DNA of 20,933 nt from an uncultured archaeon (GCA_964354495.1 CAYHAA010000016.1:1-20933), one strand, 5' to 3'; positions 1 to 18,871 are shown, numbered from the stretch's first letter. Made by a program: numbers and translations. The notes: generated by a model not told the origin, from the sequence alone.

Positions 1-8
1 GGAGTCAG

Positions 9-4007: not shown

Positions 4008-4880
4008 ATGGGCAATGATATTCCAAAGCCATTCTTGAAATGGGCCGGGGGCAAAGGTCAACTTCTAGATGATATTGAAAGTAGTCTACCCCCGAAATTC
4101 AATAGATACTTTGAGCCTTTTATGGGAGGCGGGGCTGCTTTCTTTCACTTATATCGGCAAGGTTTCGAAGGAGATATGTTTCTATCTGACCTTAATGAAG
4201 AACTAGTAACAGCATATTTGACAATACGTAATTCTGTTGAGGATCTGATTGCTGAGCTTCAAGATGGAACCTATGAAGCAGAGAAAGATGCATTCTATGA
4301 GATACGAGAATGGGATAGACAACCAGACTGGAAAACTACGGATCCGGTGCGTAAAACAGCTCGTATGATATACTTGAACAGAACCTGCTACAACGGACTG
4401 TATCGAGTGAATCAAAAGGGACAATTCAATGTACCCTATGGAAGATATAAGAATCCAACAATCTGTGATGAAGAAAACTTGCGAGCAGTAAGTGCGTCCC
4501 TCAAAAACGCGGAAATCAGGTGTTTTGATTTTGCTGATGCTGTGAAGACAGCAAAAAGGGGGGACCTCATCTACTTTGATCCGCCCTACCAACCTGTCAG
4601 CGAAACTGCATACTTTACGGATTATACTGCAGAGGGATTCGGACTGGATGAACAGAGAAGATTAGCTGCACTGTTCCAAGACCTTCACAATCGAGGGTGC
4701 CTCGTTCTAGAGAGCAACTCATCTGTAAAGGTGATCAGCGATCTCTATTCTCATCCGGATTATTACATTGATGTTGTAAAAGCCAAGAGAGCGATTAGTT
4801 GTGACCCAGAAGGGCGTGGTGAGATAGCTGAGTTGCTCATTCGTAACTATCGAGATACTAAGCAACAGAGACTTGTCTAG
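4008..4880 (+). CDS. dam: Dam/DpnM-family (D12 class, alpha group) N6-adenine DNA methyltransferase, likely GATC-specific
   Basis: FLKWAGGK, YFEPFMGGGA (motif I), DLN, YLNRTCYNGLYRVNQKGQFNVPYG, YFDPPY (motif IV) and FTDY are all hallmarks of the Dam/DpnM family. Confidence 0.95.
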   Translation: MGNDIPKPFLKWAGGKGQLLDDIESSLPPKFNRYFEPFMGGGAAFFHLYRQGFEGDMFLSDLNEELVTAYLTIRNSVEDLIAELQDGTYEAEKDAFYEIREWDRQPDWKTTDPVRKTARMIYLNRTCYNGLYRVNQKGQFNVPYGRYKNPTICDEENLRAVSASLKNAEIRCFDFADAVKTAKRGDLIYFDPPYQPVSETAYFTDYTAEGFGLDEQRRLAALFQDLHNRGCLVLESNSSVKVISDLYSHPDYYIDVVKAKRAISCDPEGRGEIAELLIRNYRDTKQQRLV

Positions 4881-4897
4881 AGGAACTCAAACTCGTT

Positions 4898-6433
4898 TTA
4901 CTCCTTCTGATAGACAAGGATGTATTCGTGGTTTGTTTTCAGGTCCGCCGATGGCGATGTGTTAGGTTTCTCATCAGAAGTGACTATTATTATTTCACGA
5001 ATCTTAAAACTAGAAAGGGGGATTTGCCATGCTAGTAACGCTGGACTGAAAAGCACTCCACCATCTCGGAAGTCTTTCAATCGAATCGCCAGATGCCCCC
5101 CAGATCTGATCTTATCATCTAGTGATGGAATTAGGCTGGCAAGATGTTTGAGATATTGCTCAAGGTAACCCTTTCGTTGATGTTGCTCACTGAGCGACTT
5201 AAGATATAGCAGATCAACATACGCGGGCGCTTTGAACTCTTCATCTCCTTTCTTCTCTACAAACTCAATGGTGAGAATTTCACCAGCTCCCCCATATCGA
5301 TTGAGTAGATTAGCAGCTAATTGCTGCTCCCATTCTCCAGTATCTAGCACCCATGTTGTCTTACATTGCATCTCACCTAGCAGAGATGGCCTCTTAGTCT
5401 TAGATAAGTGAGGAAGAAGTGAATGCGACAGTCCGGAGGCGCCATTAATTGACTCAGAGCTGGGCTTAACAAAGACTGGCAGATACTCCTGTGATAGGAG
5501 GAGAAAATTATGCTTGATACTTGATGAATGCCAGAATCCTGTGGTTCTGCAATTATGCTGACGTTTTATGATGAGATCTTTGAGAGTGAATCCTTGCTTT
5601 AGAAACACCTCAATTGTCTGAAATCCAAGAGGAACAACTTTCTTCTTTCGCCTAGTGTCACCAATGAGGAATGCACAGACCCCATCAGATTTTAGAACTC
5701 TGAAACATTCTTCTGCAACAAGACCCATCTCTTTGATGAACTCATCAATATCTCGAAAAGATAAGTCTCCCTCAATTCCATCGCTATACTGAATGATATT
5801 TGCATAGGGAGGGTGAGTGCAGATCATGTCGACTGTCCCATCCGCAATATCAGATAGGTTTCTGGCATCACCGACAATGACAGATGGTTCGAAAAGTGCG
5901 ATCTCCCCTTGTTCTCCGAGTTTCTCTTGAACTGAAACAGAGAAATCCAGATTCCTTTTGGCCAGAGCAACAGCTGCAGGACTGATATCTCTGGCCAAAC
6001 AATTCCTTCCTAGCAACTTGGTTTCCACTGCTGTTGTGCCCGCACCACAGAACTGGTCGAGAATGATGTCCCCAGGTTTCGAGTATCGCAGTATGAGGTT
6101 CCTAGGAACATACGGAGACCAGTTGCCTCGATAGTTGCCATCATGAGTTGCCCAGCTTCCTCGGCTCTTGAAGCTCCACACTGTTGATGACTCAGGAACA
6201 AAATTCTTCGGACCCGTACCGTTGAATCTGCTTGGCGTTTTGATGAGATTGAGATTGACCCCGGTATTCTTCACAACTGCGCGCTCAATTTCCCTAAGAC
6301 CAACAGAGAACTGCTGCATTATGTGTTCATCTGTCATGCCTTCAAGTTTTGCTTGATATATGGCATCTAGATCTTTCTCGCTGGTCACCATATACACCCG
6401 AATCTCGTTACTGTATTCCTTTCCAGAGTACAT
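4898..6433 (-). CDS. Amino (N6A/N4C) DNA methyltransferase with an N-terminal HTH-like segment and a degenerate second MTase domain
   Basis: TVWSF..RGSWATH.GNYRGNWSPYVPRNLILRYS, motif I DQFCGAGTT, motif IV THPPY, and KRQHNCRTTGFW...NFLLLSQEYL. The start may be the ATG at 6391 (MVTSEK), which is preceded by a GGGTG SD-like sequence. Confidence 0.9.
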   Translation of the reverse strand: MYSGKEYSNEIRVYMVTSEKDLDAIYQAKLEGMTDEHIMQQFSVGLREIERAVVKNTGVNLNLIKTPSRFNGTGPKNFVPESSTVWSFKSRGSWATHDGNYRGNWSPYVPRNLILRYSKPGDIILDQFCGAGTTAVETKLLGRNCLARDISPAAVALAKRNLDFSVSVQEKLGEQGEIALFEPSVIVGDARNLSDIADGTVDMICTHPPYANIIQYSDGIEGDLSFRDIDEFIKEMGLVAEECFRVLKSDGVCAFLIGDTRRKKKVVPLGFQTIEVFLKQGFTLKDLIIKRQHNCRTTGFWHSSSIKHNFLLLSQEYLPVFVKPSSESINGASGLSHSLLPHLSKTKRPSLLGEMQCKTTWVLDTGEWEQQLAANLLNRYGGAGEILTIEFVEKKGDEEFKAPAYVDLLYLKSLSEQHQRKGYLEQYLKHLASLIPSLDDKIRSGGHLAIRLKDFRDGGVLFSPALLAWQIPLSSFKIREIIIVTSDEKPNTSPSADLKTNHEYILVYQKE

Positions 6434-6538
6434 ATACCCCTCGAAAAGGGAACTGCATCATGAGAAAGAGTATGGTTAAGTGTAATAAGAAAGTCTGGAA
6501 CCAATAGAAGTAGCTCGTAGTAAGAGGCGAGATGAAGC

Positions 6539-7717
6539 GTGGACTCAAGTGAGTTGGATAAGAGATATGCCCGCTTTTCGGGATTGGTTCATTTTCTTGA
6601 TCCATCCAAGGATATTGAGGAAACCCCTATCGATATCGATCTCTCAAAGTATGATGATGTACTGGAATTCTTAGATCAGAAACACAGTGTCACAGTTGAG
6701 GAGTTGGCGGGATTGTTCCTTAAAGCGCCTGAAGCGATTCGCTTGTTTGAATTGATACTGCAACTCTCAAACTTCACCACAGCGCAGCGTACATTTCTCA
6801 TGTTCGATCTAGAACTTCTGAATTCATCAAAGCCAGATGACTCAGTTGGTTATATCTTGAGCGAACTGGCCGCCGATGATTCATTTAGGAAGCAAGCAAT
6901 GAAAGTGGGAATCTTGAAGCCGGATGAGTTGCCAGAATTAGGTCGACTCAGTAGCGATGAAAAACTTGTCTTCCTAGCCAGATCAAAGAGACTGATTGCT
7001 GATTACTGCAAAAAGAAAGATACCAGACCTATTCAAGAGAGGCTGAGAATTTCTGAGAAAACGCGAATGAGAGCAGCTAAATATCTCATTGAAAACAGAG
7101 GGCTAAACGATATCCTTCAGGGAATTAAGCCGAGAGTCTTCATTGAGAAAAAGCGCATCCCAGTTGATACAAAGACTAGTCACGGAAAGTACTCTACAAG
7201 AATACTTGAGAATATTCTTGTCAAGGCGGGATTCGAAGGTAGTGACAACAAGGGCCCGTGCAGTAGTATGATGATTCCAAGAACAGGCAGAGTACAGCAA
7301 TTGCTTGGTGATGCTAGCAAATCGCTAAGTTACTGCAAAGAGCGAGAAGTCGAATCCTTATCTCGACCGGGTTCCTCAGTGTCAAGTGAGTCTGTTTCAA
7401 CTGGTGCTGAAACATCCAAACGTTTCGATTTCGTACTCCTATTTGATAACATACCTAAGGTTGTTATCGAAATCAACTTTTTCACAACCAGCGGCTCAAA
7501 GATTGGCATAAACGAAAAGGAGTATCTCGCGCTTCACAAGAAGATCACTGAAACAGAGAATGGGCTGAGATTCATCTGGGTGACTGATGGTAGCTATTGG
7601 CTCACCCAAACAGGAAGGAAGAGTTTTCGAAAACTGGCTCCGTTGTTTCATGATGATTTGAAGAATCTTGCCATGTTTGCGGAAGATCTACGTAACATCA
7701 AACGAGATATGAAGTGA
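6539..7717 (+). CDS. DpnII-family type II restriction endonuclease (divergent, elongated)
   Basis: The C-terminal catalytic region KRFDFVL...VIEINFFTTSGSK...EY...FIWVTDGSYW matches the DpnII-family pattern as I recall it (KRFDF...IE.NFY...GSK...F.W.TDG.GW). The gene is adjacent to two MTases and has a GTG start. Confidence 0.85.
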   Translation: MDSSELDKRYARFSGLVHFLDPSKDIEETPIDIDLSKYDDVLEFLDQKHSVTVEELAGLFLKAPEAIRLFELILQLSNFTTAQRTFLMFDLELLNSSKPDDSVGYILSELAADDSFRKQAMKVGILKPDELPELGRLSSDEKLVFLARSKRLIADYCKKKDTRPIQERLRISEKTRMRAAKYLIENRGLNDILQGIKPRVFIEKKRIPVDTKTSHGKYSTRILENILVKAGFEGSDNKGPCSSMMIPRTGRVQQLLGDASKSLSYCKEREVESLSRPGSSVSSESVSTGAETSKRFDFVLLFDNIPKVVIEINFFTTSGSKIGINEKEYLALHKKITETENGLRFIWVTDGSYWLTQTGRKSFRKLAPLFHDDLKNLAMFAEDLRNIKRDMK

Positions 7718-7727
7718 ACTATGGAGA

Positions 7728-8459
7728 TCAGGGTTTCATTCGTGTCTCAATATCTCCATACTTCTGTTTGAAGGCCAACATTTCATAGACCTCGCTTCCT
7801 CTCAGAATCGTGGTGTTACCTGCAATCTCATGGAAGGATCCATTAAGTAGATACTCAGCTTTCTCTGCATCTTTGGTACTTGTCACTACTAGAAAAATAT
7901 CGGAGCTCCAGAGATCTCGTGCATGCTTGAGTTTGGTAAGTGCACCTTCAATACTTCCAGATACCTGGACTTCAAAGACCTTGGCAGGAGATCCTGACTT
8001 GACACGTTTCCAGATCACATCATAGCGATTATGTTCATGAATGTACTCAGCCTCAGGATGCATGCCATATGATTCAGCTAGTTTCACGATCATCTCTTGA
8101 AGAGTGTCATGATCAAATGTCTTTGGCATCTGTCGTGTCCTTGAAGTTTCTTTTTCCGCCAAAGTTGTTTGGATTGTATTCGCGTAATGCTGAACTTGAA
8201 CATGCCATTCACGACCTTCAGAAACAGGCGAGAAAACCAAATAATCCCCTGCTTTGGTATCTGGATGCTGCCTTAAGATTTCGTCGAGCTTCAGTCTATT
8301 CTGCCTATCAATGTGAGCCTTAAAAATGACTCCATCTCCCCTCAGTTCAAAAGCCACATCGGCCGGCGGAAACCACTCACGATACCTCTCTAAGGCTCTT
8401 AGCTTGTACTTCAGAGCGGACTTTCTTAGCTGCAGTCGAAATTCGTGTGGTTCCTTCAA
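7728..8459 (-). CDS. Hypothetical protein: small N-terminal beta-rich (B3/EcoRII-N-like?) domain plus a C-terminal PD-(D/E)xK nuclease domain
   Basis: The C-terminal half HDTLQEMIVKLA...RYDVIWKR...VFEVQVSG...ALTKLKHARDLW has PD-(D/E)xK spacing (D...EVQ). The gene is co-oriented with dndA, lies 114 nt downstream of it, and has a TTG start. Confidence 0.7.
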   Translation of the reverse strand: MKEPHEFRLQLRKSALKYKLRALERYREWFPPADVAFELRGDGVIFKAHIDRQNRLKLDEILRQHPDTKAGDYLVFSPVSEGREWHVQVQHYANTIQTTLAEKETSRTRQMPKTFDHDTLQEMIVKLAESYGMHPEAEYIHEHNRYDVIWKRVKSGSPAKVFEVQVSGSIEGALTKLKHARDLWSSDIFLVVTSTKDAEKAEYLLNGSFHEIAGNTTILRGSEVYEMLAFKQKYGDIETRMKP

Positions 8460-8573
8460 TTCATTCCCGATGCTATGTACAGGTTGTTAGCTATAAGAAT
8501 TGTATCATCACACGTAGCTTTGCTTCTCAGATCGCTTCGAAGACTTGTCAGGCATCCAAAATCATTCAGTGGA

Positions 8574-9740
8574 CTACGCCGCCAACTTCCTCAGCCTTTC
8601 TGATTCCTCAGTCAGTCGCTTTGCTGCATAGTCTACTTCATCTCGGGTGGTAAATCTGCCGAGACCAATTCTTATCGAAGATGAGATCCTTTCTGAGGAA
8701 TGCCCCATCGCAGTAAGAACATGTGAAGCTTCGACTTTGTTGGTTCCACAGGCGGACCCTGTTGAGAAGGCAATTTCACGCTTCAACGAGTACTGCAATG
8801 CCTTGTTCTGCACTCCAGTGATTGAGATGTTCAGATTATGTGGAAGGCGTAGACGCGGATGACCATTCAGGTAAACATCATCAATTGTGTCTTTCATGTA
8901 GTCTAGCATGAAGTCACGCCAAGAGACGAGCCTTTTTTCCTCTTCGTGGTAAACGTTGTGTGCGATTCTTGTGGCCTCACCAAAACCAACAATCCCAGGA
9001 ACATTTAGAGTTCCCGAACGTAGCCCCTTTTCGTGTCCTCCTCCCAAAATGAGCGGCCGGATTCTTATCCGTGGCCTACGCTTCCTTATTACAAGGGCTC
9101 CGACACCCTTTGGCCCGTACATCTTGTGAGCGGAAACCGACAGCATGTCAACATCCGATTCCTTCATGTCCACTCTAATGTGACCGACGGCCTGAGCGGC
9201 ATCAGTATGAAAGAAGGCTCCTGCTTCGTGCGCAATCTTCACAAGTTCTCTGATGGGTTGGATTGAGCCAACTTCATTGTTGGCGGTCATTATCGTGACG
9301 AGTACAGTGTCTTGTTCAATGGCAGATTCCAAGTCCGCAGGGTCCACAATCCCTTCTTGGTCCACTGGCAGTACTGACAACCTAACTCCGAGTGTCTTTA
9401 GATATTCTGCTGGTTGCAGTACTGCTTTGTGCTCAACGTTGGAGGTTATCATATGCTTTCCTGCAGTCCCCAGTTGAGTCAATAGTCCAATTATCGCCAA
9501 GTTATCAGCTTCAGTTGCTCCACTTGTGAAAATGATTTCTGATGCTTCACAGTTTATCAGATCGGAGATTTGACTCCTAGCCTTCTCGACAGCTTCGTTA
9601 GCCTCAGCACCATAAGCGTGGTCTATAGAAGATGCGTTACCAAGATGTGTCGTAAAGTAGGGGAGCATGCTTTCCAAGACCTCTGGATCGGTCTGTGTCG
9701 TTGCATTGTTGTCCAAATAGATTGGTCTTTCAAGCTTCAT
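8574..9740 (-). CDS. dndA: Cysteine desulfurase DndA (IscS/NifS-like), sulfur donor for DNA phosphorothioation
   Basis: YLDNNATT, FTSGATEADN, PLP lysine in SAHKMYGPKG, catalytic Cys in STGSAC. The gene overlaps the dndE stop by 11 nt. Confidence 0.92.
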   Translation of the reverse strand: MKLERPIYLDNNATTQTDPEVLESMLPYFTTHLGNASSIDHAYGAEANEAVEKARSQISDLINCEASEIIFTSGATEADNLAIIGLLTQLGTAGKHMITSNVEHKAVLQPAEYLKTLGVRLSVLPVDQEGIVDPADLESAIEQDTVLVTIMTANNEVGSIQPIRELVKIAHEAGAFFHTDAAQAVGHIRVDMKESDVDMLSVSAHKMYGPKGVGALVIRKRRPRIRIRPLILGGGHEKGLRSGTLNVPGIVGFGEATRIAHNVYHEEEKRLVSWRDFMLDYMKDTIDDVYLNGHPRLRLPHNLNISITGVQNKALQYSLKREIAFSTGSACGTNKVEASHVLTAMGHSSERISSSIRIGLGRFTTRDEVDYAAKRLTEESERLRKLAA

Positions 9741-10122
9741 TGCTGTTCACCAAGTCCGATTCTGGAAGCATTTTTTGAAGATCCGACAGTGATTTCACCC
9801 GCGAGTGAACCATTGAGATGCCCCTATTCAAATGAGCCTTCAGCTGATGTAATCCGTCTCTTTCAAAATCCAGACCTTCTTCATTAAGCCGTTGTCTGAG
9901 CAGTACAAGAAAAAGCTCATCCCATTCCCCAGTTAGTGTGTAGCGGTTGAATTCCATACCTTCGTCATCCACGTCTGTGCTCGGTCTACTTGGGGTTTCA
10001 AGTGATAGACAAAGCCCAATACGAGAGAGAAGATTGGGAGTAATGCCTGTTCTTCGTTTCAGTACGGAGAGTTTGGAGGTGGATGATCTGCTGACCTTTA
10101 TCTTATTGAAAACCAATCTCAA
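9730..10122 (-). CDS. dndE: DNA sulfur modification protein DndE
   Basis: LKRRTGITPNLLSRIGLCLSLE, EFNRYTLTGE and LKAHLNRGI match the DndE pattern. The gene sits between dndD and dndA and has a TTG start. Confidence 0.92.
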   Translation of the reverse strand: MRLVFNKIKVSRSSTSKLSVLKRRTGITPNLLSRIGLCLSLETPSRPSTDVDDEGMEFNRYTLTGEWDELFLVLLRQRLNEEGLDFERDGLHQLKAHLNRGISMVHSRVKSLSDLQKMLPESDLVNSNEA

Positions 10123-10125
10123 AGA

Positions 10126-12123
10126 CTAGTTCACCCTCCGTCGTTTCTCTTTAATGCTTGACCTACCTGTTCGTTTGTCGAACCTAAGCTTGTAATCTTT
10201 GGCGACGTAAGGTTCGAGTGCGGATCTTAGGTCTTTTGTCAACTCTGTGTTTGTTACAAAAAGCACGATTTGTTCACTAACATGAGGGAGAAACTCCCGA
10301 GTAACGGACCGCCTATTGCTCTTATCGAGTCTTGCCAGCGGCGTGTCGATAAGGAATGGAAAGCCTCTATTGGTGGACGACATAATTGCACCCAGAAGTG
10401 AAATTGCATACAGCTGCTTTTCTCCTGCAGACAGGCGATCCGAATCCTCAACCACTCCATCGTTTCTCTCGAGTTTTGCAGTCAGACTGTCTGGATTCAT
10501 CAGGATTCTAGTGACCTGATTCTTGTCTGACCTCATGGCATTATACACGTTCTTCAAATTTGTCTGAAGACCCTCAATTTTGGCTGATGCCAATTTCCCA
10601 TGAAATTCCTTCAGAACATCCATTGCCGCTTTAGCATAGGCGAGCTTTCTCCCTTGCTTTGATCTTCCCATTATTGTTTCGAGTTCTTTGCCCCGTTCAA
10701 ATTCGGTAGCTGCAATTTTGTCTTCCAGTTTCCCAAGGGCCTCAATTGCATTGATTCTGTCATTCTCTATGGCTGTAAAATCTGTCAGAAGCGTGTGAAG
10801 TTTATCTATGTGAGGTCTAAGTGATTCCTCAGCAGGTACCCTATCTATTTGACGACGAGTAGTTTCTAGTTTTCTGCTAGTTGACTCTAACCGATCAAGC
10901 GACGATTTTAGATCGTCTGCTTTCCTTTTTGATTGTGCAAAAAGATTCATTGCATGTTGGATTTCGGAACTGGAGAAACCATAGACCTCACTGGCGTCGG
11001 GCCGAGGAAAGAGGCCTTTTGCGTCTTGCAGCAGTCTTTCAACATGCCTGTGAAATTGCTCTGCATTCTCTCGTCTGCTCATCTGTGCATCCTCATTGGC
11101 CATACCTCTTATTGCATTAGTGATTTTTTCAGCCATTTCGGACGCGTATCTTGCATCACGAGTCGCTTCATCACGGGCTAAGGTTTCCAGAGTTCGCTCT
11201 ACGAGCTTCGGCGCGTAAACAAACGGAAGTAGATCATTACACAGTTTCGATATCTCGATCCTTATTTCAATAAGCTCACGCTCACACAAGGCTTCATCTT
11301 TAAGCAGCGCATTTCTGGCTTCTGCATACTCTGAACCCTCACGTGCTAGCTTTTGCTCCGCTATTGAAACCTCTTCTTGCTTCTTCCTCGATTTCTCAGA
11401 GATACCTTCGATCTCACCTAGCAGAGATATCTTCTCCTTCTTCAAGTTCGAAACCTGCCTCTCAAGCTCATTCCACCTTTCCTTGTCCGAATCAATCTCA
11501 CTCTGAGCCAACTGGACAGAGAACAATTCTAGGTCCTTCCTCGCTCTCTCGACGAGATCGACTCCGGTTAATGAGAAGAAGCCATCTCGAAGCAATGTGT
11601 ATGTGTTATCATCTTCAGTGAACGTCTTGATCTTTTCTCCATCAAAGAACAAGAGCTGTGATACGCCAATAGGAAAGACATTCATAAGAAACTGACCGGG
11701 TTTTGATATTCTCCTGGTTTTGCCTTTACTATCCGATGCAACCAAGTCGACGTTTTCAATGACGTTTTCTCCTTTGAGAACCCTCCATGAGCGAGTCAGT
11801 ATTAAATCAAGTTCTTCGCCCCGTTCCATGTAGCTCATCACGAGTTTCACCGATGCCCCATCTTTCCTACTCCCAGAGGGAGTTTCGTGAACACGACTTG
11901 CCAGAAACCTGTCATAAGCCGTCTGTGACATGCCCTTGCCATTCACGAATCTACCGTATACACATAATGTCATTGCTTCCAAGAGCGTCGTCTTTCCTGC
12001 GCCATTATTGCCGCAGAAGATCACTACGGGCCGCTCTGGTTGTACTTTATCGTCAATCAACGATACGATTGCTTCTCCTTCAAATACTCCATAGTCTCTG
12101 ATTACTAGCTCTTTCAGAATCAA
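10126..12123 (-). CDS. dndD: DNA sulfur modification protein DndD (SMC/Rad50-like ABC ATPase)
   Basis: Walker A GNNGAGKTT, FFDGEKI, a long coiled coil, signature LSAGEKQL, and Walker B/D-loop LIDTPLARLD. A 4-nt TTGA overlap couples it to dndC. Confidence 0.95.
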   Translation of the reverse strand: MILKELVIRDYGVFEGEAIVSLIDDKVQPERPVVIFCGNNGAGKTTLLEAMTLCVYGRFVNGKGMSQTAYDRFLASRVHETPSGSRKDGASVKLVMSYMERGEELDLILTRSWRVLKGENVIENVDLVASDSKGKTRRISKPGQFLMNVFPIGVSQLLFFDGEKIKTFTEDDNTYTLLRDGFFSLTGVDLVERARKDLELFSVQLAQSEIDSDKERWNELERQVSNLKKEKISLLGEIEGISEKSRKKQEEVSIAEQKLAREGSEYAEARNALLKDEALCERELIEIRIEISKLCNDLLPFVYAPKLVERTLETLARDEATRDARYASEMAEKITNAIRGMANEDAQMSRRENAEQFHRHVERLLQDAKGLFPRPDASEVYGFSSSEIQHAMNLFAQSKRKADDLKSSLDRLESTSRKLETTRRQIDRVPAEESLRPHIDKLHTLLTDFTAIENDRINAIEALGKLEDKIAATEFERGKELETIMGRSKQGRKLAYAKAAMDVLKEFHGKLASAKIEGLQTNLKNVYNAMRSDKNQVTRILMNPDSLTAKLERNDGVVEDSDRLSAGEKQLYAISLLGAIMSSTNRGFPFLIDTPLARLDKSNRRSVTREFLPHVSEQIVLFVTNTELTKDLRSALEPYVAKDYKLRFDKRTGRSSIKEKRRRVN

Positions 12124-13577
12124 GTTTGCTCACCTGCGCCCTTCTCATGAAGTACCTCTTCCTCTGAGCGCCACTCCTCAGACATTATCTTGTCAATCGA
12201 CTTGGTGACAGATGTTCTTCGAGGCAAGCCCTGCATTACTGATTCCAGATCAAGAATCTTCTTCACGAGCTCTAGAGGTGTTCCAGACGCCTCGCAAAGC
12301 TTCTCTAGCATGGATTCCTCCTCTGCTCCGAATCGCGTGATGTCCTCTTTCATCCACTTTAGGTCGTACTCCATTACTTCGTGATATATCGAGGGAACGG
12401 TATCTTCCCAATCGCCCCGTTCGTTTCTCCATATCCTTCTTATTTCATGCAACTCATCTTCAGTTATCAAAGTGAAGTCTTTCTCTGGATGAGTACTTCG
12501 GAGCTTCTTCTGCGCTTGGAGCACCATTCTAAGAACTTTTGCGCTCACGTGTAGATAGTATGGCCCCCGCGCAATAGTTGTATCATCGTCAGTCTTGAAG
12601 AAGACACGTCCATCTCGGTGCTTATAGTCTCTGAATTCTCTCTTCTTGCTCGGATCTGTCGTGTCATAAAGAAAATCTCTGATTTCGAGAAGATCTTCCA
12701 TCCATTCTTCACCAGAGTCTACAAGGTTCTCCATTGACCTATCGCTAGAAACAAGAGTACAAATCCAGCATCCAAACCTCGTGTTTCCGCATGATGGAGT
12801 CGACTTATCGACTACAAGAGGACATTCATTGTCCTGGGCGGTTCTGTACATCCCTAAGAGTTGGTAGTTATCTCCACCCCAAGGAGGCGGCTGCTGTAGG
12901 AGGTATCCCCAAACATCTTCTAATGAGAAATCCTGTATGGGTGCATACACGTATGCACCAGAAAAAGTTGTATGACTATACAAATGCATCCTCTTTGATT
13001 TTCTCAAGGATAGAACTTGATCTCTGGTTGCACTCTCACCTTTTCTGACACCAAGAACGATGATGACTTCACCGTGATACGCTATGCGGTCCATGATGTA
13101 GTCGCTGGTAGGCTGAATCTTTAGACGATCTGTACACCATCGAAATAGGCGAGTAGGTGCAGCGTATCCTCTCCCAATAAGATTCACCCAGTATGTTTGA
13201 CTTAGTCTAGGTCGGACCATCTGGATATGGAAAGGGAGGTTATCTCTTTCTGCTGCTGTCCTCATTCTAGTGACTTGCTCTCGTAGATAGTCAAGTATGA
13301 ACGGATTCTCCACCATCGTATCGGAGGAAACAACATAGAGTGGCTTCTTGCGCTCTTTCTCAGATAGTCCTGAGATGGCCAACCAAACAAGCTGAAGCGC
13401 AGCTGATGAGTCCTTTCCACCACTATAGCCTACAATCCAAGGCCGCTCATCAGCCAAGTACAACGACCTGATTTCGTCGTACGTGCCGTCAAGCCGCATC
13501 TTGTGCAACGGCGGAAAGCTCTCAGCATCCTCCTCAATCAATGCACCAATCTCCTGCTTATCAGTGATTCCTGACAC
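12120..13577 (-). CDS. dndC: DNA phosphorothioation sulfurtransferase DndC (PAPS-reductase/PP-loop family)
   Basis: PWIVGYSGGKDSS (PP-loop), RWCTDRLKIQP, and ECPLVVDKSTPSCGNTRFGCWICTLV. Confidence 0.96.
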   Translation of the reverse strand: MSGITDKQEIGALIEEDAESFPPLHKMRLDGTYDEIRSLYLADERPWIVGYSGGKDSSAALQLVWLAISGLSEKERKKPLYVVSSDTMVENPFILDYLREQVTRMRTAAERDNLPFHIQMVRPRLSQTYWVNLIGRGYAAPTRLFRWCTDRLKIQPTSDYIMDRIAYHGEVIIVLGVRKGESATRDQVLSLRKSKRMHLYSHTTFSGAYVYAPIQDFSLEDVWGYLLQQPPPWGGDNYQLLGMYRTAQDNECPLVVDKSTPSCGNTRFGCWICTLVSSDRSMENLVDSGEEWMEDLLEIRDFLYDTTDPSKKREFRDYKHRDGRVFFKTDDDTTIARGPYYLHVSAKVLRMVLQAQKKLRSTHPEKDFTLITEDELHEIRRIWRNERGDWEDTVPSIYHEVMEYDLKWMKEDITRFGAEEESMLEKLCEASGTPLELVKKILDLESVMQGLPRRTSVTKSIDKIMSEEWRSEEEVLHEKGAGEQT

Positions 13578-14647
13578 TCTATTTCTTCTGCTGCTAGATT
13601 AACTCCGAGAATCTCCTTTATTGCAATTGATGTTAATTTTAGATTGAGATGGGCTTTACTTATTTTTCCACCTTCCATAGCCACACCTTCCCACATTTTG
13701 GTATTTCCTCGCCTCCAATCTAAAGAGTGGAGAACCATAAGGCGTCCCCTCCAACTGTCTGGATACTGCTCAATCAATGAACGCCCAGCAATTCCAAGCG
13801 CCACCAGTACGACACCATGGGAGTGCACGAACTTCCTTCGCAAAACGCTGCTCTTGATTTCTCCATTGAGAAAGGATTTCCACTCAGGGATCACAACAGA
13901 AACAGCATTCCAGTAGTCAATTGCCAGTTTCTTCTCACTAGCGCTCACATTATCACCTTTGGTTTTATTCATCAAGTTACAGAAAGCTTGGTAGACATTA
14001 CTAAGTGTGAAGAGTTTTATTGATCGGTTTGATAGAGAAGTCTTCTCATATTCGACAGCTCCTCTAAACAGTGGAACGGTTGAAACGAGTTCGAGAGTTG
14101 CTGCAGCTACCGGATCTCGTCTATCATATAGTATGCTTAATGATTTTGTCGGCCGAACGGCATATCTGTTGAGATCTGCAAACATTTGTTGAGATTGCTT
14201 TAGGTCAGAATCAACAAATATCACAAGTGGGATTGCTTCTGACGCCAACTCTTTCTTCTTCTGAATTGCATCGAATATTGCTGCTCTGCGATGCTGCCCA
14301 TCATTTATCACGAATTTCGCAGATGCAGGGACCGTAAGAAATCCTTGGTCAGATGATGAATCATCGTTAATTGGGGTGAATACAATCTCCGAATCAACTG
14401 ATACAGTTAATGCAGAAAACACATATGAATTGGGATTATCTAGAATGTATCGTACTATATCTGGTACACGACGGTGGTTGATAGTTCTTTGTGCTCTGAA
14501 GTCAGGGGGCAATTCATCTTCATTGTATACCGTTATCTTGCATACTGTATCAAGAGGGCACATAGTGATATAGTACTCTCGACCTGCTTGAATTCCCCTT
14601 ATGGCAGAGAATGAAAGACTGAACGACTTGCTTTCAATACTTTTCAT
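13538..14647 (-). CDS. dndB: DNA sulfur modification protein DndB (DGQHR-domain regulator)
   Basis: AIRGIQAGREYY, RAQRTIN..RV..I..YIL, INDGQHRRAAI, and QQMFADLNRYAVRP..SL.ILYD.RD. It is the first gene of the operon and overlaps dndC by 40 nt. Confidence 0.95.
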   Translation of the reverse strand: MKSIESKSFSLSFSAIRGIQAGREYYITMCPLDTVCKITVYNEDELPPDFRAQRTINHRRVPDIVRYILDNPNSYVFSALTVSVDSEIVFTPINDDSSSDQGFLTVPASAKFVINDGQHRRAAIFDAIQKKKELASEAIPLVIFVDSDLKQSQQMFADLNRYAVRPTKSLSILYDRRDPVAAATLELVSTVPLFRGAVEYEKTSLSNRSIKLFTLSNVYQAFCNLMNKTKGDNVSASEKKLAIDYWNAVSVVIPEWKSFLNGEIKSSVLRRKFVHSHGVVLVALGIAGRSLIEQYPDSWRGRLMVLHSLDWRRGNTKMWEGVAMEGGKISKAHLNLKLTSIAIKEILGVNLAAEEIECQESLISRRLVH

Positions 14648-14845
14648 GTTTCACGCCAAATTGCCTAGTAGAATGTACGTCAAAATAAGACTTCCGGAAA
14701 TCAGAATAAAACATACCAATCTGGTGTTATGACATGAGTGGATTCGTTCCATTCAACAGAAGAAGTCTTCTTTACCTCTAGGAATAAACAAGATTCTGAG
14801 AATCCGAACCGCAGAGGCAAAGGTCATTCTTGAAACATAGATTAC

Positions 14846-14889
14846 TAAGACTTTTTTAAGGACGCTTCAAATCTGTCGGGAGAGGAGGT
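14846..14889 (+). promoter_or_regulatory. Putative archaeal promoter (TATA) and SD for the ParB operon
   Basis: TTTTTAAG at 14853-14860, preceded by TAAGAC. GGAGGT lies at 14884-14889, 6 nt before the ATG at 14896. Confidence 0.6.
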
Positions 14890-14895
14890 TGTATT

Positions 14896-15720
14896 ATGTC
14901 TTCATATGTAGTTGATGAAATCCCAGTCAAATCGGTTGTAGCATCGAAATCTCAGAGTAGACAAAGAAAAGTCATGGATGATATCGATGAGCTTGCAAAT
15001 AACATTAGAGTGTTCGGATTGATTCATCCTGTTACTGTATTTGAGAAGGATGGAAAGTATGAGCTAATAGCAGGACAAAGAAGATTCCTTGCAGTTCAAA
15101 AGCTAGGATGGAAAACAATCCCAGCGCATGTTGTACCTGAGCCCGAAGACCCTATCAAAGCCAAGGCATATTCTTTCTCGGAAACATTCATGAGAACGGA
15201 TATGGTTGAACAGGATCTAATAGAAGCTTGCACTTTCTTCTACAATACCTACGGGAATATGGCATTGGTAGCCACTGAATTGGGCTTGCCTTACCCCAAG
15301 GTGAGAAAGTACGTAAAAATGGCTCAACTTCCCGAATCATTGAAAAAGAAGGTTCAAGATGGCACTATAAGTTTCGACAGAGCGCTCAAAGCAGTAGAAT
15401 TCTCTACTGATGAGAATCTCAATGTTGACGAAGAAAAGTCCTTGGAGCTAGCGATAGAATTGCAGAAGATGACTGGCTCACAAGTCAAGCAGGTTGGAGA
15501 ATTGGTCAGAGCTGAGCCCTCTGCAACTGTGTCAGAGCTTGTTGAAGCCGGCGCCAAGCCACCAAAGATCAGAGAACTTAGGATTGAATTGCATACAAGT
15601 GGCTATAAGTCACTCTCAAAATACTCAAAGGACACCAAGGCAACATCTGAATCCGAAGCAGCAGTAGAACTCCTCCTGGAAGCTCTTTCGAACAAGGGAT
15701 ACTACGAAGAGGAGGAGTAA
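14896..15720 (+). CDS. ParB/Spo0J-family protein (ParB N-terminal domain, HTH, and a C-terminal RHH-like dimerisation segment)
   Basis: DELANNIRVFGLIHPVTV...YELIAGQRRFLAVQKLGWKTIPA (arginine patch GxxRxxA). HTH YGNMALVATELGL...V...KMAQLP. No parA is present in the window. Confidence 0.9.
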   Translation: MSSYVVDEIPVKSVVASKSQSRQRKVMDDIDELANNIRVFGLIHPVTVFEKDGKYELIAGQRRFLAVQKLGWKTIPAHVVPEPEDPIKAKAYSFSETFMRTDMVEQDLIEACTFFYNTYGNMALVATELGLPYPKVRKYVKMAQLPESLKKKVQDGTISFDRALKAVEFSTDENLNVDEEKSLELAIELQKMTGSQVKQVGELVRAEPSATVSELVEAGAKPPKIRELRIELHTSGYKSLSKYSKDTKATSESEAAVELLLEALSNKGYYEEEE

Positions 15721-15721
15721 G

Positions 15722-16441
15722 TTGGCACTCAATTCACGGGAAATTGCTGAGCTGATTATGAGTGTGGGCACCCACTCAAAAGAGCGACCGCTTTCGCCAA
15801 TCGAGGTGGCTGAAAGAATGAGAGTGCTCTTAGATGAATACGGCTCTAGGTCAGCAGTGGCAAGGCGGCTCGGATTGAAAGGCGTTGACATGGTGAACAG
15901 GTTCCTCGCATTGCTGAAACTTCCTCTTACAGTTAGGAATGCCATTGGCTGGAGAGGACCACAAGAGGGTGAGATAGGCTTAGACATCGCATATCGTATC
16001 TCAACACTAGACAATCCTAGGGAACAGGATACACTAGTGAAAGTTGTGATTCAGGAACCTCTTAGCAAAGAAGAAGTCCTTGACATCGTAACCTTACGAA
16101 ATAAGAATCCAGAGATGACGATTGAGGACTGCATTGAAACCAGGATTAAGATCCGCCCTATTGTAGAAACAGGGTATCTTTTGGTCTTCGAGATAAATGA
16201 AACTACGATCAAATTACTCAGAGAGAATACTGTCGAAAACGTAGAGAAGCATCTGGAGGAAATAATTGAGTGTGTGGTAGAAAAAGCTGAAATTGAATCA
16301 ATAAGATACAAATCCGGTATTGCGATATTCGTCCTATCAGAGAGGGGTTACCAGCAACTAACCATGTTTGCCAAGGAGAGAGGAGTAGACAAGAAAGATC
16401 TGTTAGATATTCTGATCTCTAAGAGGGTCAATGAACTATGA
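15722..16441 (+). CDS. ParB-like HTH protein lacking the N-terminal ParB (CTPase) domain
   Basis: PLSPIEVAERMRVLLDEYGSRSAVARRLGL...VNRFLALLKLP is the ParB/Spo0J HTH block and begins about 20 aa from the N-terminus. The TTG start lies 1 nt after the upstream TAA, and there is an ATGA overlap with the next gene. Confidence 0.8.
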   Translation: MALNSREIAELIMSVGTHSKERPLSPIEVAERMRVLLDEYGSRSAVARRLGLKGVDMVNRFLALLKLPLTVRNAIGWRGPQEGEIGLDIAYRISTLDNPREQDTLVKVVIQEPLSKEEVLDIVTLRNKNPEMTIEDCIETRIKIRPIVETGYLLVFEINETTIKLLRENTVENVEKHLEEIIECVVEKAEIESIRYKSGIAIFVLSERGYQQLTMFAKERGVDKKDLLDILISKRVNEL

Positions 16442-17463
16442 CTAGCGAATTGGACCATGCTAGAATTGCTTCGGATGGTAGTATCTTCATGGGCAAGAAC
16501 TTCTGTGCTGATGGATTCAGCTTCCAGAGAAAGTACTCAATATATACTCATATCCACGAGGACCATATCGGACAATTCGATAGTAGTCTAGGCTATTGTG
16601 ACCTGATTATAGCTTCAAAAGCAACTGTGGATTTGCTTAAGGCTATTAAAGGAGAGTATCTATCTATAAGAGATAATCTTGTTGGATTGGCTTTTGAAAA
16701 ACCGCTGAATCTTGATGATGGAACCGTCACTTTGTTCCCAGCAACGCACATATTGGGATCTGCACAAGTACTTGTCGAAACTGATGACAAGAGAATAGTC
16801 TATACTGGGGATTTTGATTGTCCGGGAACCGAACCAGTGGAATGTGATATTCTGATCATTGACTCAACACATGGAATGACGAAGTATGATTACAGTATGA
16901 TTGAAAAGGACAAGGCCAAAGCAGAGCTTCTTGAATTAGTCAGGTCTTTTCACCGGAATTCGGAATTGCCTATTTTGGTTCGTGCGTTTCGGGGGAGACT
17001 GCAGAGCATTATGCACGAACTCAGAAGCACCAGAACATGCAATGGAGTGCTGTTTGTATCCTCAGAACCGGACTATAGGATAGCGAAAGTGTATCAGGAA
17101 TATGGGTATGCATCAACTCCATTACAGGAAATCGATTCGAGGCTGCCTCTCAGCACGCAGGTCAATGATCCAGTGTATATTGCATTCTTGCCGATTGGAG
17201 CTGGCAACAATTATGATTCATCTCATAACGTCATAGAAATCAACAGCTATGGAGTGAGCGGGCCCTACACAAGAATCAACAAGAGGAAGTATAGATTATG
17301 TTGGTCCGACCATGCGGACTTCAAAGGGCTGATTGGCTATATTGAAAAATCAGGAGCGCGAACTGTCATAACCGATACAATTCGTGGTCAAGGTTATCCT
17401 CTTGCCGAATACATCAACAAGGAGATGGGAAATCGTGTGAAAGCTATAGCAGGTGGAGGTTAA
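16438..17463 (+). CDS. Metallo-beta-lactamase-fold nuclease of beta-CASP type (SNM1/Artemis/aCPSF-like)
   Basis: THIHEDH (HxHxDH), ATHILGSAQV, VYTGDF, IIDSTHG (motif A) and WSDHAD (motif B). Confidence 0.88.
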   Translation: MTSELDHARIASDGSIFMGKNFCADGFSFQRKYSIYTHIHEDHIGQFDSSLGYCDLIIASKATVDLLKAIKGEYLSIRDNLVGLAFEKPLNLDDGTVTLFPATHILGSAQVLVETDDKRIVYTGDFDCPGTEPVECDILIIDSTHGMTKYDYSMIEKDKAKAELLELVRSFHRNSELPILVRAFRGRLQSIMHELRSTRTCNGVLFVSSEPDYRIAKVYQEYGYASTPLQEIDSRLPLSTQVNDPVYIAFLPIGAGNNYDSSHNVIEINSYGVSGPYTRINKRKYRLCWSDHADFKGLIGYIEKSGARTVITDTIRGQGYPLAEYINKEMGNRVKAIAGGG

Positions 17464-17504
17464 CTTTGAATGTGGCTTGCCCAGTTCATTTTCCGTGCTA
17501 TACA

Positions 17505-18326: not shown

Positions 18327-18712
18327 ATAGCCCATCACCTTGCAGAAACATTCTGGCAATAATGCAGATGACGCAATCTTCAAAAAACCCCTTGAAAAGA
18401 GAACCAGATTGATACCAATAGAGGATTCAAACTTTTAACGCTTACTGATGTATATCCTCAGAACTGTAGCACTCGTAGTTGGGATACATGAAATAGAGTT
18501 TCACATCCTTCTAAATGAATCCCTTGGATTATGTCTTCATACCCTTGATTCTAGACTGGCTGGTGTGTACAAAGGATTTCAAGTGGAAACTCCGATTGCG
18601 TTCAATGAATTCTACATCGCTGATATCGCTTTGAGCATCATTTGCAATCCACCAATGAGTCTGGTCAACGAGTTCTAGGTCGCCAAGAACGGTCAGCCTA
18701 TCTACCAGAAGA

Positions 18713-18871
18713 CTACTTCTTTGAACGCCTCTTGGGTCTGAGGTCTCTTGTGTGGCACTTTCTGCACTTGACCGCCTTGAGCGGATTAGTTGCTCCACAG
18801 TATCTACATACTGATTTGTACAGCAAGTAGTGCTGTGCAAGCCTGCGTTTTTCGATGTCCGCTATTGGCAT
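18713..18871 (-). CDS. rpl40e: Large-subunit ribosomal protein L40e (52 aa; below the ORF-track cutoff)
   Basis: Manual translation gives MPIADIEKRRLAQHYLLYKSVCRYCGATNPLKAVKCRKCHTRDLRPKRRSKK*. It has the CxxCGATNP...CRKC...LRPK signature and a GAGGT SD upstream. Confidence 0.96.
   Translation of the reverse strand: MPIADIEKRRLAQHYLLYKSVCRYCGATNPLKAVKCRKCHTRDLRPKRRSKK

What the first reader, a model, noticed from the sequence alone, without database searches (positions are those of the whole stretch)
8574..14647. Complete dndB-C-D-E-A operon in an archaeon with none of the known restriction partners nearby
Seen: five translationally coupled genes (overlaps or gaps of 40, 4, 3 and 11 nt) with intact catalytic motifs. 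Known: bacterial Dnd is typically paired with dndFGH, and the described archaeal version is dndCDEA with pbeABCD. Here dndB is retained, dndA is terminal, and the genes on both sides are unrelated to those partners. Inference: either an orphan epigenetic PT system or a new PT-dependent defence type using adjacent genes.
Basis: partly seen in the sequence, partly recalled or inferred. Interest (0 to 1): 0.7.

Follow-up and report, generated by a model that had tools for sequence, protein, structure and literature searches.

The report
Asgard dnd operon, ParB-nuclease neighbour
A Thorarchaeota (Asgard archaeon) genome carries an intact, horizontally acquired five-gene DNA-phosphorothioation operon with none of the known restriction partners, but its neighbour is a ParB/ParB-HTH/beta-CASP nuclease gene trio that also sits beside dnd genes in unrelated microbes and is the best candidate for a new partner.

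Summary
dndB-C-D-E-A lies on the minus strand at 8574-14647, intact and tightly coupled, with catalytic motifs present. The host is a Candidatus Thorarchaeota MAG (97.7% complete).

Whole-genome profile searches found no DptF/DptH, no second DndD/DndE-type pair (PbeC/PbeD), no PLD-helicase PbeA, no GmrSD (DndI/SspE) and no DUF4007.

- Partner-less dnd is common (PMC10853773).
- The B-C-D-E-A order recurs in other Asgard genomes and in the closest relatives.

The five nearest DndC relatives all sit beside Pbe-type cassettes, which this genome lacks.

The divergent three-gene operon at 14896-17463 fills that position. It encodes a ParB-CTPase-like protein, a ParB-HTH paralogue and a beta-CASP nuclease. 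This trio is conserved elsewhere. Of 13 trio loci with enough flank, 10 carry a DndC-family gene. Seven of those carry full-length dndC, in divergent, convergent and colinear layouts and in at least four DndC lineages. Only 1 of 88 related nuclease loci without the ParB pair does.

My best reading is a functional PT-marking operon on a defence island whose Pbe partner was exchanged for this undescribed trio. Its role as effector is inferred, not shown.

This scan had already noted the trio, including on this window.

The parts
13538..14647 (-). dndB (369 aa): DGQHR/ParB-superfamily regulator, first gene of the PT operon
   Evidence: TIGR03233 432 bits (cut-off 328), PF14072 5e-122, PADLOC DndB 2.5e-141; DGQHR at residues 116-120
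12120..13577 (-). dndC (485 aa from GTG 13577; 474 aa from TTG 13541): PP-loop ATP pyrophosphatase/sulfurtransferase with C-terminal Sp-DndD-like tail
   Evidence: TIGR03183 523 bits (cut-off 290); SGGKDS 52-57; Cys252/263/270/273; weak PF20306/PbeB-like hit at 419-465
10126..12123 (-). dndD (665 aa): SMC-like ABC ATPase
   Evidence: TIGR03185 361 bits (cut-off 246); PADLOC DndD/PbeC models 1e-129 to 1e-134; Walker A at 38-45, LSAGE at 564
9730..10122 (-). dndE (130 aa): DNA-binding partner of DndD
   Evidence: TIGR03184 84 bits (cut-off 72), PF08870 1.5e-25; the only DndE-family gene in the genome
8574..9740 (-). dndA (388 aa): PLP-dependent cysteine desulfurase, last gene of the operon
   Evidence: PADLOC DndA 1.9e-157; TIGR03235 444 bits (below cut-off 480); PF00266 4.9e-87; Lys206 and Cys331 motifs
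14648..14895 (.). 248-bp divergent intergenic region between dndB and the ParB gene, holding three copies of AAGACTT(C) about 80 nt apart (one inverted)
   Evidence: the repeat finder families D3, I1, I3; function not tested
14896..15720 (+). ParB-CTPase-like protein (274 aa): ParB_N plus HTH, conserved GQRR box. First gene of the dnd-linked trio
   Evidence: PF02195 8.8e-17, TIGR00180 1.7e-18; profile hits Noc/ParB/Spo0J structures at 1e-23 to 1e-15; orthologues in the trio loci
15722..16441 (+). ParB paralogue with the HTH_ParB part only (239 aa). Second gene of the trio, starting 1 nt after the ParB stop
   Evidence: PF17762 6.2e-7; conserved orthologues; weak complex-prediction support with the ParB protein: 0.45 against best control 0.00
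16438..17463 (+). beta-CASP metallo-beta-lactamase-fold nuclease (341 aa). Third gene of the trio, 4-nt overlap with the gene before it
   Evidence: TIGR04122 2.4e-25 (below cut-off); HxHxDH 38-43, H104, D125 and D291-H292 invariant in the family; profile hits aCPSF1/FttA, Cas14, CPSF73, Artemis/SNM1A
7728..8459 (-). Unknown 243-aa gene, 114 nt downstream of dndA on the same strand. Probably a PD-(D/E)xK-like nuclease belonging to the R-M part of the island; rival partner candidate
   Evidence: No Pfam/NCBIfam/PADLOC hit. 78% identical copy beside the N6_N4 MTase and Dam in dnd-less G015. 30% homologue upstream of pbeA in L272/G080. Weak REase-like leads only
4008..7717 (.). DpnII-type R-M genes of the same island: Dam-like D12 MTase 4008-4880 (+), N6_N4 MTase 4898-6433 (-), DpnII-like REase 6539-7717 (+)
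   Evidence: PF02086 1.5e-61, PF01555 8.3e-29, PF04556 2e-16; PADLOC MTase_II/REase_II

Best explanation
The window holds a horizontally acquired defence island in a Thorarchaeota chromosome. Its core is a complete DndBCDEA machine. By homology to the studied systems, it works as follows. DndA takes sulfur from cysteine. DndC (PP-loop, Fe-S cysteines) activates and transfers it. DndD-DndE scan and bind DNA, so that a non-bridging phosphate oxygen is replaced by sulfur at a short motif. DndB limits the level of marking. This DndC lineage is normally paired with a Pbe-type cassette. Here that cassette is absent, and the slot next to dndB holds a translationally coupled trio: a ParB-CTPase-like protein, a ParB-HTH paralogue and a beta-CASP nuclease. 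I infer that the trio is the functional partner of the PT mark. The two ParB proteins would form an NTP-gated DNA-binding or sliding unit whose behaviour depends on PT marks, as with the ParB-superfamily NTPase domains of DndI and SspE. That unit would direct the beta-CASP nuclease to unmarked (foreign) DNA. Shown here: gene content, intact motifs, absence of known partners, island status, and the statistical linkage of trio and dnd. Inferred: that PT is made, that the trio senses PT, and that the nuclease restricts DNA.
For: Intact dnd genes above curated cut-offs, with motifs present. No DptF, DptH, PbeC, second DndE, GmrSD_N/C, TIGR04095-level PbeA or DUF4007 in the 97.7%-complete genome. 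HMMs built locally from the relatives' own PbeA/C/D and GmrSD sequences also found nothing. The DptF search rang at 7.9e-136 in an E. coli dnd record. Island status: dndC was found in 0 of 27 same-genus genomes and 9 of 400 phylum genomes. Window 1-18500 has no DNA-level counterpart in 40 family genomes apart from sporadic R-M or dndC pieces, while sucD and orf103 are core. The other Asgard dnd loci with usable context carry known-type partners: PLD-SF2 helicase plus ABC ATPase, GmrSD, or HNH. WIN DndC sits in a 100/100-supported clade of six whose other five members are Pbe-linked. Trio linkage: of 13 trio loci with at least 4 kb of flank, 10 have a DndC-family gene, 7 a full-length DndC and 6 a DndD. 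Of 88 homologous MBL loci without the ParB pair, only 1 does, and that one is a truncated contig start (Fisher 1.6e-10; kin are not independent). The layouts differ: divergent (window), convergent (L028 Nitrosopumilus, L205), colinear downstream of the trio (L029 Acidobacteria, L178), colinear upstream (L183). The linked DndCs fall in at least four places in the DndC tree. Two other trio+dnd genomes also lack DptF and any PbeC paralogue. The ParB GQRR box and the MBL catalytic residues are conserved. Complex prediction for ParB with ParB-HTH gave weak support: 0.45 against a best control of 0.00. That mark was reached by 58 of 80 solved complexes and 2 of 110 mismatches, but scores of 0.60 or under came from only 7 of those 80 and from both mismatches. 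The runs agreed in 100% of contacts, and partner pLDDT was at least 84.
Against: There is no direct evidence that PT is made, or that the trio senses PT or cuts DNA. The linkage is guilt by association, and some linked loci are related to each other (L029/L178; L028/P0016/L183). Two trio loci show no dnd within the available flank (L020, L201). Four others are linked only to a small stand-alone PAPS-reductase rather than a full dnd set (L021, L025, L162, L164), so the real tie may be to DndC-type enzymes and not to the PT mark. In L235 the trio coexists with a GmrSD (DndI-like) gene, so it is not simply an alternative to that effector. Other trio loci carry an SNF2 helicase of about 460 aa that is missing here, so this copy may be incomplete. 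The ParB protein resembles segregation and Noc-type ParBs more than it resembles DndB or GmrSD. Partner-less dnd is common anyway (PMC10853773).
Confidence: 0.5

Rival explanations
1. This is a stand-alone (orphan) PT modification system. The operon marks DNA for epigenetic, redox or regulatory purposes, or as passive protection, without any PT-dependent restriction. The trio is an unrelated island passenger, a regulator, or a maintenance module of the mobile element.
For: No known partner is present in the genome. The literature shows dndABCDE is usually decoupled from dndFGH: only 7% of taxa carry all eight genes (PMC10853773). The ParB protein is closest to partition/Noc-type ParBs. L020 carries the trio in an integrase-bearing mobile-element context without dnd.
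Against: 10 of 13 trio loci lie beside DndC-family genes, in several orientations and DndC lineages, against 1 of 88 control loci. A passenger or partition module would not track dnd like this. The other Asgard dnd loci with usable context do carry an effector-type neighbour. Rakesh et al. report a nuclease in the modification neighbourhood in 80% of taxa.
Confidence: 0.28
2. The partner lies on the other side of the operon. The 243-aa putative PD-(D/E)xK nuclease downstream of dndA, and/or the adjacent DpnII-type (GATC) R-M genes, cooperate with PT. One version is PT at GATC-type sites interplaying with 6mA methylation.
For: The 243-aa gene is co-oriented with dndA and only 114 nt downstream, the position where dnd-linked endoDNases are often found (PMC10853773). 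A 30%-identical homologue sits at the head of a pbe-dndCDE cluster in L272/G080. The closest dnd relative, L269, also has an N6_N4 MTase and a DpnII gene near dnd. Haloarchaeal Dnd marks GpsATC (PMC6459918).
Against: A 78%-identical copy of the 243-aa gene travels with the N6_N4 MTase and Dam in G015, which has no dnd. It is absent from the other dnd loci examined. The L269 DpnII gene is only 25% identical over 95 aa. The nuclease fold assignment is weak: Atlas 0.79, and no Foldseek match at E<=0.001. The PT motif of this system is unknown.
Confidence: 0.1
3. A known partner exists but was missed. It could lie in an assembly gap (the window starts at a contig end) or be too divergent for the profiles used.
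For: The genome is a 51-contig MAG and window position 1 is the start of contig C16. The searches for DptH and DUF4007 had no positive control. ScoMcrA-type SBD-HNH was tested only with two query proteins.
Against: Completeness is 97.7%. The DptF control worked. PbeC and DndE profiles, together with clade-specific HMMs from the nearest relatives, found only the operon's own DndD and DndE. In the relatives the partner lies directly beside dnd, and here both flanks are fully assembled for about 6 to 8 kb.
Confidence: 0.07

Closest known systems
DndBCDE + DndA/IscS phosphorothioation system (Streptomyces lividans, Salmonella enterica Cerro 87)
   Same: All five components are present and score on the equivalog models. 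Motifs are intact. dndB leads the operon, as in bacteria.
   Different: The host is an Asgard archaeon. dndA is the last gene of the same operon rather than separate or divergent. No dndFGH is present.
DndCDEA-PbeABCD of haloarchaea (Xiong et al. 2019, PMC6459918)
   Same: An archaeal PT system with dndA in the operon. The five closest DndC relatives of this locus carry Pbe-type cassettes (PLD/SF2 helicase, small protein, ABC ATPase, DndE-like protein).
   Different: This genome has no PbeA, PbeC or PbeD homologue. dndB is present. The neighbouring slot holds a ParB/ParB-HTH/beta-CASP trio instead.
IscS-DndBCDE-DndI and SspABCD-SspE (GmrSD-type effectors; PMC11662687, PMC9646914)
   Same: The proposed logic is the same: a ParB-superfamily NTPase module coupled to a nuclease, encoded beside PT modification genes.
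   Different: Here the NTPase-like part is a canonical ParB_N+HTH protein (GQRR box), not DUF262 (DGQQR). The nuclease is a beta-CASP MBL enzyme, not a DUF1524 HNH. The parts are three separate genes. PT sensing is untested. In one related locus (L235) the trio and a GmrSD gene coexist.
DndFGH (DptFGH) restriction module
   Same: The expected functional role: a PT-controlled attack on unmarked DNA.
   Different: No sequence relationship. DptF and DptH are absent from this genome, and DptF is absent from all 400 Asgard genomes sampled.

Membership tests
Dnd PT modification system (DndABCDE) | DndC: PP-loop ATP pyrophosphatase with conserved cysteines, scoring on the DndC equivalog model | tested here: met
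   TIGR03183 523 bits (cut-off 290); SGGKDS 52-57; Cys252/263/270/273
Dnd PT modification system (DndABCDE) | Obligate DndD (ABC ATPase) and DndE pair next to DndC | tested here: met
   TIGR03185 361 bits (cut-off 246); TIGR03184 84 bits (cut-off 72). dndD overlaps dndC by 4 nt and is followed by dndE after a 3-nt gap
Dnd PT modification system (DndABCDE) | Cysteine desulfurase (DndA/IscS) with PLP lysine and catalytic cysteine | tested here: met
   PADLOC DndA 1.9e-157; Lys206 and Cys331. Below the TIGR03235 cut-off (444 against 480), so it is IscS/NifS-like but in the operon
Dnd PT modification system (DndABCDE) | DndB with DGQHR motif | tested here: met
   TIGR03233 432 bits (cut-off 328); DGQHR at 116-120
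Dnd PT modification system (DndABCDE) | Phosphorothioate actually present in the DNA at a defined motif | not testable with these tools
   Needs LC-MS/MS of PT dinucleotides or PT-seq/SMRT. No RNA holder was listed for the locus either
DndFGH (DptFGH) | DptF, DptG and DptH genes present | tested here: not met
   TIGR03238 and TIGR03237: no match in the own genome. TIGR03238 found in 0 of 400 Asgard genomes. DptF positive control 7.9e-136 in an E. coli dnd record. DptG not searched; DptH had no positive control
PbeABCD | Second DndD-like ABC ATPase (PbeC) with a DndE-like PbeD, a small PbeB and a PLD/SF2 helicase PbeA | tested here: not met
   PDLC02756 and PF08870 hit only the operon's own DndD and DndE. 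TIGR04095 best 34.6 bits against a cut-off of 600. HMMs from the relatives' PbeA/C/D gave no PbeC or PbeD and only generic helicase hits
DndI / SspE (GmrSD-type PT-sensing nickase) | DUF262 (GmrSD_N) NTPase fused to DUF1524 (GmrSD_C) HNH | tested here: not met
   PF03235 and PF07510: no match in the own genome, while the controls rang in 7 and 5 of 14 reference genomes. A local GmrSD HMM found nothing
SspABCD | SspB (DUF4007) with SspC and SspD | tested here: inconclusive
   PF13182: no match, but the control rang nowhere. The only strong PAPS-reductase-type defence gene is dndC
ParB-CTPase family (for the trio's first gene) | ParB_N fold with the GxxRxxA-type box II arginines, followed by an HTH | tested here: met
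   PF02195 8.8e-17; GQRRFLA at 60-66, invariant across orthologues; profile hits Noc/ParB structures at 1e-23. NTP binding and hydrolysis not testable here
beta-CASP MBL nucleases (for the trio's third gene) | MBL motifs HxHxDH, H, D plus beta-CASP motifs A-C | tested here: met
   H38-x-H40-x-D42-H43, H104, D125, D137, D291-H292 invariant or nearly invariant; hits to aCPSF1, CPSF73, Artemis and SNM1A. Below the TIGR04122 cut-off, so it is not a member of that equivalog

The most novel reading that the evidence does not exclude
The ParB-CTPase / ParB-HTH / beta-CASP trio is a previously undescribed PT-dependent restriction module that replaced PbeABCD at this Asgard dnd locus. It would be an NTP-gated ParB clamp that reads phosphorothioate marks and licenses a beta-CASP nuclease against unmarked DNA. 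That would make it a fifth class of PT effector, after DndFGH, PbeABCD, SspE/DndI and SspFGH.
Probability: 0.33. Interest if true: 0.8.

Novelty: new variant of a known kind. Interest (0 to 1): 0.55.

Why it matters
The dnd operon itself is ordinary: one more patchily distributed, horizontally acquired PT system, here in an Asgard archaeon. What matters is the long-standing question of what partner-less dnd clusters work with. This locus is a clean case. Its lineage's usual Pbe partner is absent from a near-complete genome. The partner slot is filled by a three-gene module that tracks dnd across Archaea and Bacteria. If the trio is a PT-reading effector, it adds a new effector architecture: a ParB clamp with a beta-CASP nuclease. 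It would also give a compact eight-gene system that can be tested directly by heterologous expression.

Tried and rejected
- The search for related loci with the broad MBL alignment A1 and the six-row ParB alignment A3 failed for lack of a conserved stretch. Narrower alignments worked.
- A single-protein ParB scan found only one distant Bacteroidales hit. The viral-contig scan gave nothing useful.
- PF27807 (dnd_assoc_4/PbeD) and PF26348 (SRA_ScoMcrA) are not in the genome search library. I replaced them with local HMM/phmmer searches using the relatives' own proteins. These have limited sensitivity and found nothing.
- Sequencing runs: no RNA holder listed. The one DNA holder had a share of only 0.06, so I did not lay reads and draw nothing on expression or habitat.
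- I first guessed Thermoproteota/Bathyarchaeia from genome sizes. Named SucD relatives (Thorarchaeota) overturned this. The SucD genome-contig scan was uninformative.
- I looked for an att-type direct repeat of the junction tRNA-like sequence in C16 and found none. ARAGORN and Rfam did not call that multi-intron tRNA-like gene.
- I tested whether C18:38.3-50 kb is the other half of the island. It is mosaic and partly conserved elsewhere in relatives, so the left boundary stays undefined.
- Fold search for the 243-aa protein gave no match at E<=0.001, only weak PD-(D/E)xK-type rows.
- I considered the Hel308-like helicase (714-3533) as a PbeA analogue and rejected it. It has no PLD domain, scores 18 bits on TIGR04095, and is not conserved beside dnd.

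Full report
**Anatomy.** The window is the first 20,933 bases of contig C16 (72,583 bp). The assembly is 3.30 Mb in 51 contigs, 97.7% complete and 3.8% contaminated. Five minus-strand ORFs at 8574-14647 are dndB, dndC, dndD, dndE and dndA.
- DndB, DndC, DndD and DndE each exceed NCBI's equivalog cut-offs.
- DndA is an in-operon IscS/NifS-type cysteine desulfurase. It scores 1.9e-157 on the PADLOC DndA model but 444 bits against a cut-off of 480 on TIGR03235.
- The 40-nt overlap rests on a GTG start. A TTG at 13541 abuts the dndB stop and matches the 474-aa length of the closest homologue.
- Motifs are intact: DndA Lys206 and Cys331; DndC SGGKDS plus four clustered cysteines; DndD Walker A and signature; DndB DGQHR.

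**Host.** The window holds a TFB gene. The core gene sucD at 19054-19923 is 82-87% identical to many proteins that NCBI names Candidatus Thorarchaeota archaeon. The host is therefore an Asgard archaeon.

**Neighbours.**
- On the dndA side: an unknown 243-aa gene (7728-8459, same strand); a DpnII-type R-M set (Dam-like MTase 4008-4880, N6_N4 MTase 4898-6433, DpnII-like REase 6539-7717); a 939-aa Hel308-like SF2 helicase; and a GNAT gene.
- On the dndB side: a divergent, translationally coupled trio across a 248-bp spacer. It comprises a ParB_N+HTH protein (14896-15720), an HTH_ParB-only paralogue (15722-16441) and a beta-CASP MBL nuclease (16438-17463).
- Beyond the trio: a TFB paralogue, then core genes orf103, sucD and sucC.

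**Known partners are absent.** Whole-genome profile searches gave these results:

| Target | Result |
|---|---|
| DptF, DptH | no match |
| PbeC, DndE family | only the operon's own DndD and DndE |
| GmrSD_N, GmrSD_C | no match; controls rang in 7 and 5 of 14 reference genomes |
| TIGR04095 (PbeA-type) | generic helicase hits, at most 35 bits against a 600-bit cut-off |
| DUF4007 | no match; no positive control |

- HMMs that I built from the PbeA/C/D and GmrSD proteins of this locus's own relatives also found no PbeC, PbeD or GmrSD.
- Two HNH-type dnd neighbours used as queries found nothing.
- The DptF search is sensitive: it rang at 7.9e-136 beside dndC in an E. coli record.

**Island status.**
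- dndC was not found in 27 same-genus genomes. It occurs in 9 of 400 sampled genomes of the phylum.
- At the DNA level, window 1-18500 has no counterpart in 40 same-family genomes except scattered R-M pieces and dndC. By contrast, 18706-18900 (orf103) and sucD are conserved.
- In relatives, a syntenic block corresponding to G000 contig C18 runs up to a multi-intron tRNA-like gene, followed by orf103 and sucD.
- The TFB paralogue at 17505-18383 has no orthologue in the genus.
- The right boundary of the island is therefore about 18.4-18.5 kb. The left boundary is lost at the contig end.

**What is ordinary.**
- Partner-less dnd is well documented. Rakesh, Aravind and Krishnan found all eight dnd genes in only 7% of taxa. 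They found some nuclease in the modification neighbourhood in 80% of taxa. They list HKD, HNH, REase, URI, HEPN and PIN, but no MBL or beta-CASP (PMC10853773).
- Xiong et al. examined 39 archaeal dndCD loci and found pbeAC in 26 archaeal genomes (PMC6459918).
- PT systems are a recognised, patchily distributed archaeal defence with repeated bacteria-to-archaea transfer (bioRxiv 10.1101/2025.04.20.649705).
- The gene order B-C-D-E-A recurs in Asgard genomes G051, G133 and G134, in the closest relatives L269 and L271, and in Nitrosopumilus L028.

**What the relatives carry.** The other Asgard dnd loci with usable context have known-type partners:
- G133: PLD-SF2 helicase, ABC ATPase and a 774-aa GmrSD.
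- G033: PLD-SF2 helicase and ABC ATPase.
- G134: an HNH protein.
- G080, G128, G040: Pbe-like genes, judged by gene size, a DndD-like paralogue, or near-identity to L272.

The closest DndC homologues (70%, 66% and 60% identity) sit directly beside Pbe-type cassettes (helicase, small protein, ABC ATPase, dnd_assoc_4). In a maximum-likelihood DndC tree, the window's protein lies in a 100/100-supported clade of six, and the other five members are all Pbe-linked. So the clade's usual partner is Pbe, and this genome lacks it.

**The trio.** I reached this part before consulting earlier notes.
- Homologues of the MBL protein (about 35% identity) in metagenomes are again preceded by ParB_N and HTH_ParB genes.
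- Scans of species-representative genomes and metagenomes, analysed with HMMs built here, gave 13 trio loci with at least 4 kb of flank after removing exact duplicates (some share a lineage). Of these, 10 carry a DndC-family gene, 7 a full-length DndC and 6 a DndD.
- Among 88 homologous MBL loci lacking the ParB pair, only 1 carries a DndC-family gene, and that one is a truncated contig start.
- The Fisher values (1.6e-10 and 1e-7) overstate the case, because kin are not independent.
- The layouts differ:

| Layout relative to dnd | Loci |
|---|---|
| Divergent | window |
| Convergent | L028 (Nitrosopumilus), L205, the P0016 contig |
| Trio followed by dndBCDE on the same strand | L029 (Acidobacteria), L178 |
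| dndBCDEA followed by the trio as one eight-gene array | L183 |

- Trio-linked DndCs fall in at least four places in the DndC tree. The MBL tree shows about four trio lineages that co-inherit with their dnd only within a lineage.
- Two other trio+dnd genomes also lack DptF and any PbeC paralogue.
- Among 400 Asgard genomes, only this one has a strong HTH_ParB-paralogue match. One other has a ParB pair without the nuclease.

**Complications.**
- Four trio loci are tied to a small stand-alone PAPS reductase rather than a full dnd set.
- One locus (L235) reads DndC-like, GmrSD, SNF2, then the trio.
- Several loci add an SNF2 helicase of about 460 aa that is absent here.
- Two loci show no dnd in the available flank.

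**Mechanistic hints.**
- The ParB protein keeps the GQRR box and matches Noc/ParB/Spo0J CTPase structures at 1e-23 to 1e-15. Its model has mean pLDDT 80.
- The nuclease keeps all MBL and beta-CASP catalytic residues and matches aCPSF1/FttA, Cas14, CPSF73, IntS11 and Artemis/SNM1A/Apollo.
- Complex prediction for ParB with its HTH paralogue gave weak support: 0.45 against a best control of 0.00. That mark was reached by 58 of 80 solved complexes and 2 of 110 mismatches. Scores of 0.60 or under came from only 7 of the 80 and from both mismatches. The runs agreed in 100% of contacts, with partner pLDDT at least 84.
- I found no paper that links ParB plus MBL to dnd.

**The dnd-distal side.**
- A 78%-identical copy of the 243-aa gene sits beside the N6_N4 MTase and Dam in dnd-less G015.
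- A 30% homologue heads a pbe-dndCDE cluster in L272/G080.
- Atlas and Foldseek give only weak restriction-endonuclease-like leads.
- It is best read as part of the R-M portion of the island, and it remains a minor rival partner.

**Verdict.**
The layout and the orphan status are not unusual in themselves.
- Function is inferred. PT synthesis, PT sensing and restriction are all untested.
- The scan has noted this trio before, on this very window (e1-5383884) and within a seven-gene cassette in other genomes (e1-784944, e1-1110083, e1-4979964). My independent analysis agrees.
- New here: the window's DndC clade is otherwise Pbe-linked, the host is Thorarchaeota, and known partners are excluded genome-wide with a working control.

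Noticed in passing
window 4008-7717: DpnII-type (GATC) R-M cassette with two methyltransferases (Dam-like D12 and N6_N4) and a 392-aa protein that matches DpnII only in its C-terminal part. Genome-wide, GATC is under-represented (9873 observed against about 12800 expected from base composition). Haloarchaeal Dnd marks GpsATC, so PT/6mA interplay at GATC is conceivable but untested.
   Followed up: partly
window 7728-8459 (-): A 243-aa protein of no known family whose well-modelled C-terminal domain (pLDDT 78-92) gives only weak restriction-endonuclease-like matches. Homologues sit beside an R-M methylase in G015 and at the head of a pbe-dndCDE cluster in L272/G080.
   Followed up: partly
window 17505-18383 (-): An accessory TFB (TFIIB) paralogue inside the island, with no orthologue at E<=1e-40 in 27 same-genus genomes. 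The first-look filter flagged about 12 TFB-like candidates in this genome.
   Followed up: partly
window 714-3533 (-): A 939-aa Hel308-like SF2 helicase, far below the Hel308 equivalog cut-offs. Its best PADLOC hits are PDC-M23B and Hachiman HamB models. No HamA-like partner was seen in the window.
   Followed up: no
window 14648-14895: The divergent dndB/ParB spacer holds three copies of AAGACTT(C) about 80 nt apart, one of them inverted. This could be an operator or loading site for DndB or the ParB pair.
   Followed up: no
G000:C18:~38530-38745: A tRNA-like gene with apparently several introns (5' GGGCCGGTGGTCTAGACCGG ... 3' ...TCGTCCGGCCCACCA). It marks the syntenic junction next to sucD in relatives. 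ARAGORN and Rfam did not call it.
   Followed up: partly
L235:7039-8430, L201:6966-8351, L205:1466-2785; L028:5444-6814, L183:11064-12452: Many trio loci add a compact SNF2 helicase (439-463 aa) next to the trio. In L028 and L183, a 456-462-aa protein of no Pfam family follows the nuclease instead. The window has neither.
   Followed up: partly
L021:11053-12219, L025:6978-7664, L164:3066-3761, L162:1892-2608: A subgroup of trio loci lacks DndD/E and has a small stand-alone PAPS-reductase gene (about 230-390 aa) convergent on the nuclease. L021 looks phage- or plasmid-like (DnaN, many small ORFs).
   Followed up: partly
L269:14225-16027: The closest dnd relative carries a long (600-aa) second DndB-family protein and a PDDEXK_11 gene just downstream of dndA, in addition to two Pbe-type cassettes.
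   Followed up: no
G230:C280 (L356:1-1112): Another Asgard genome has a ParB / ParB-HTH pair related to the trio, with no beta-CASP gene in the 1.5 kb that follow.
   Followed up: partly
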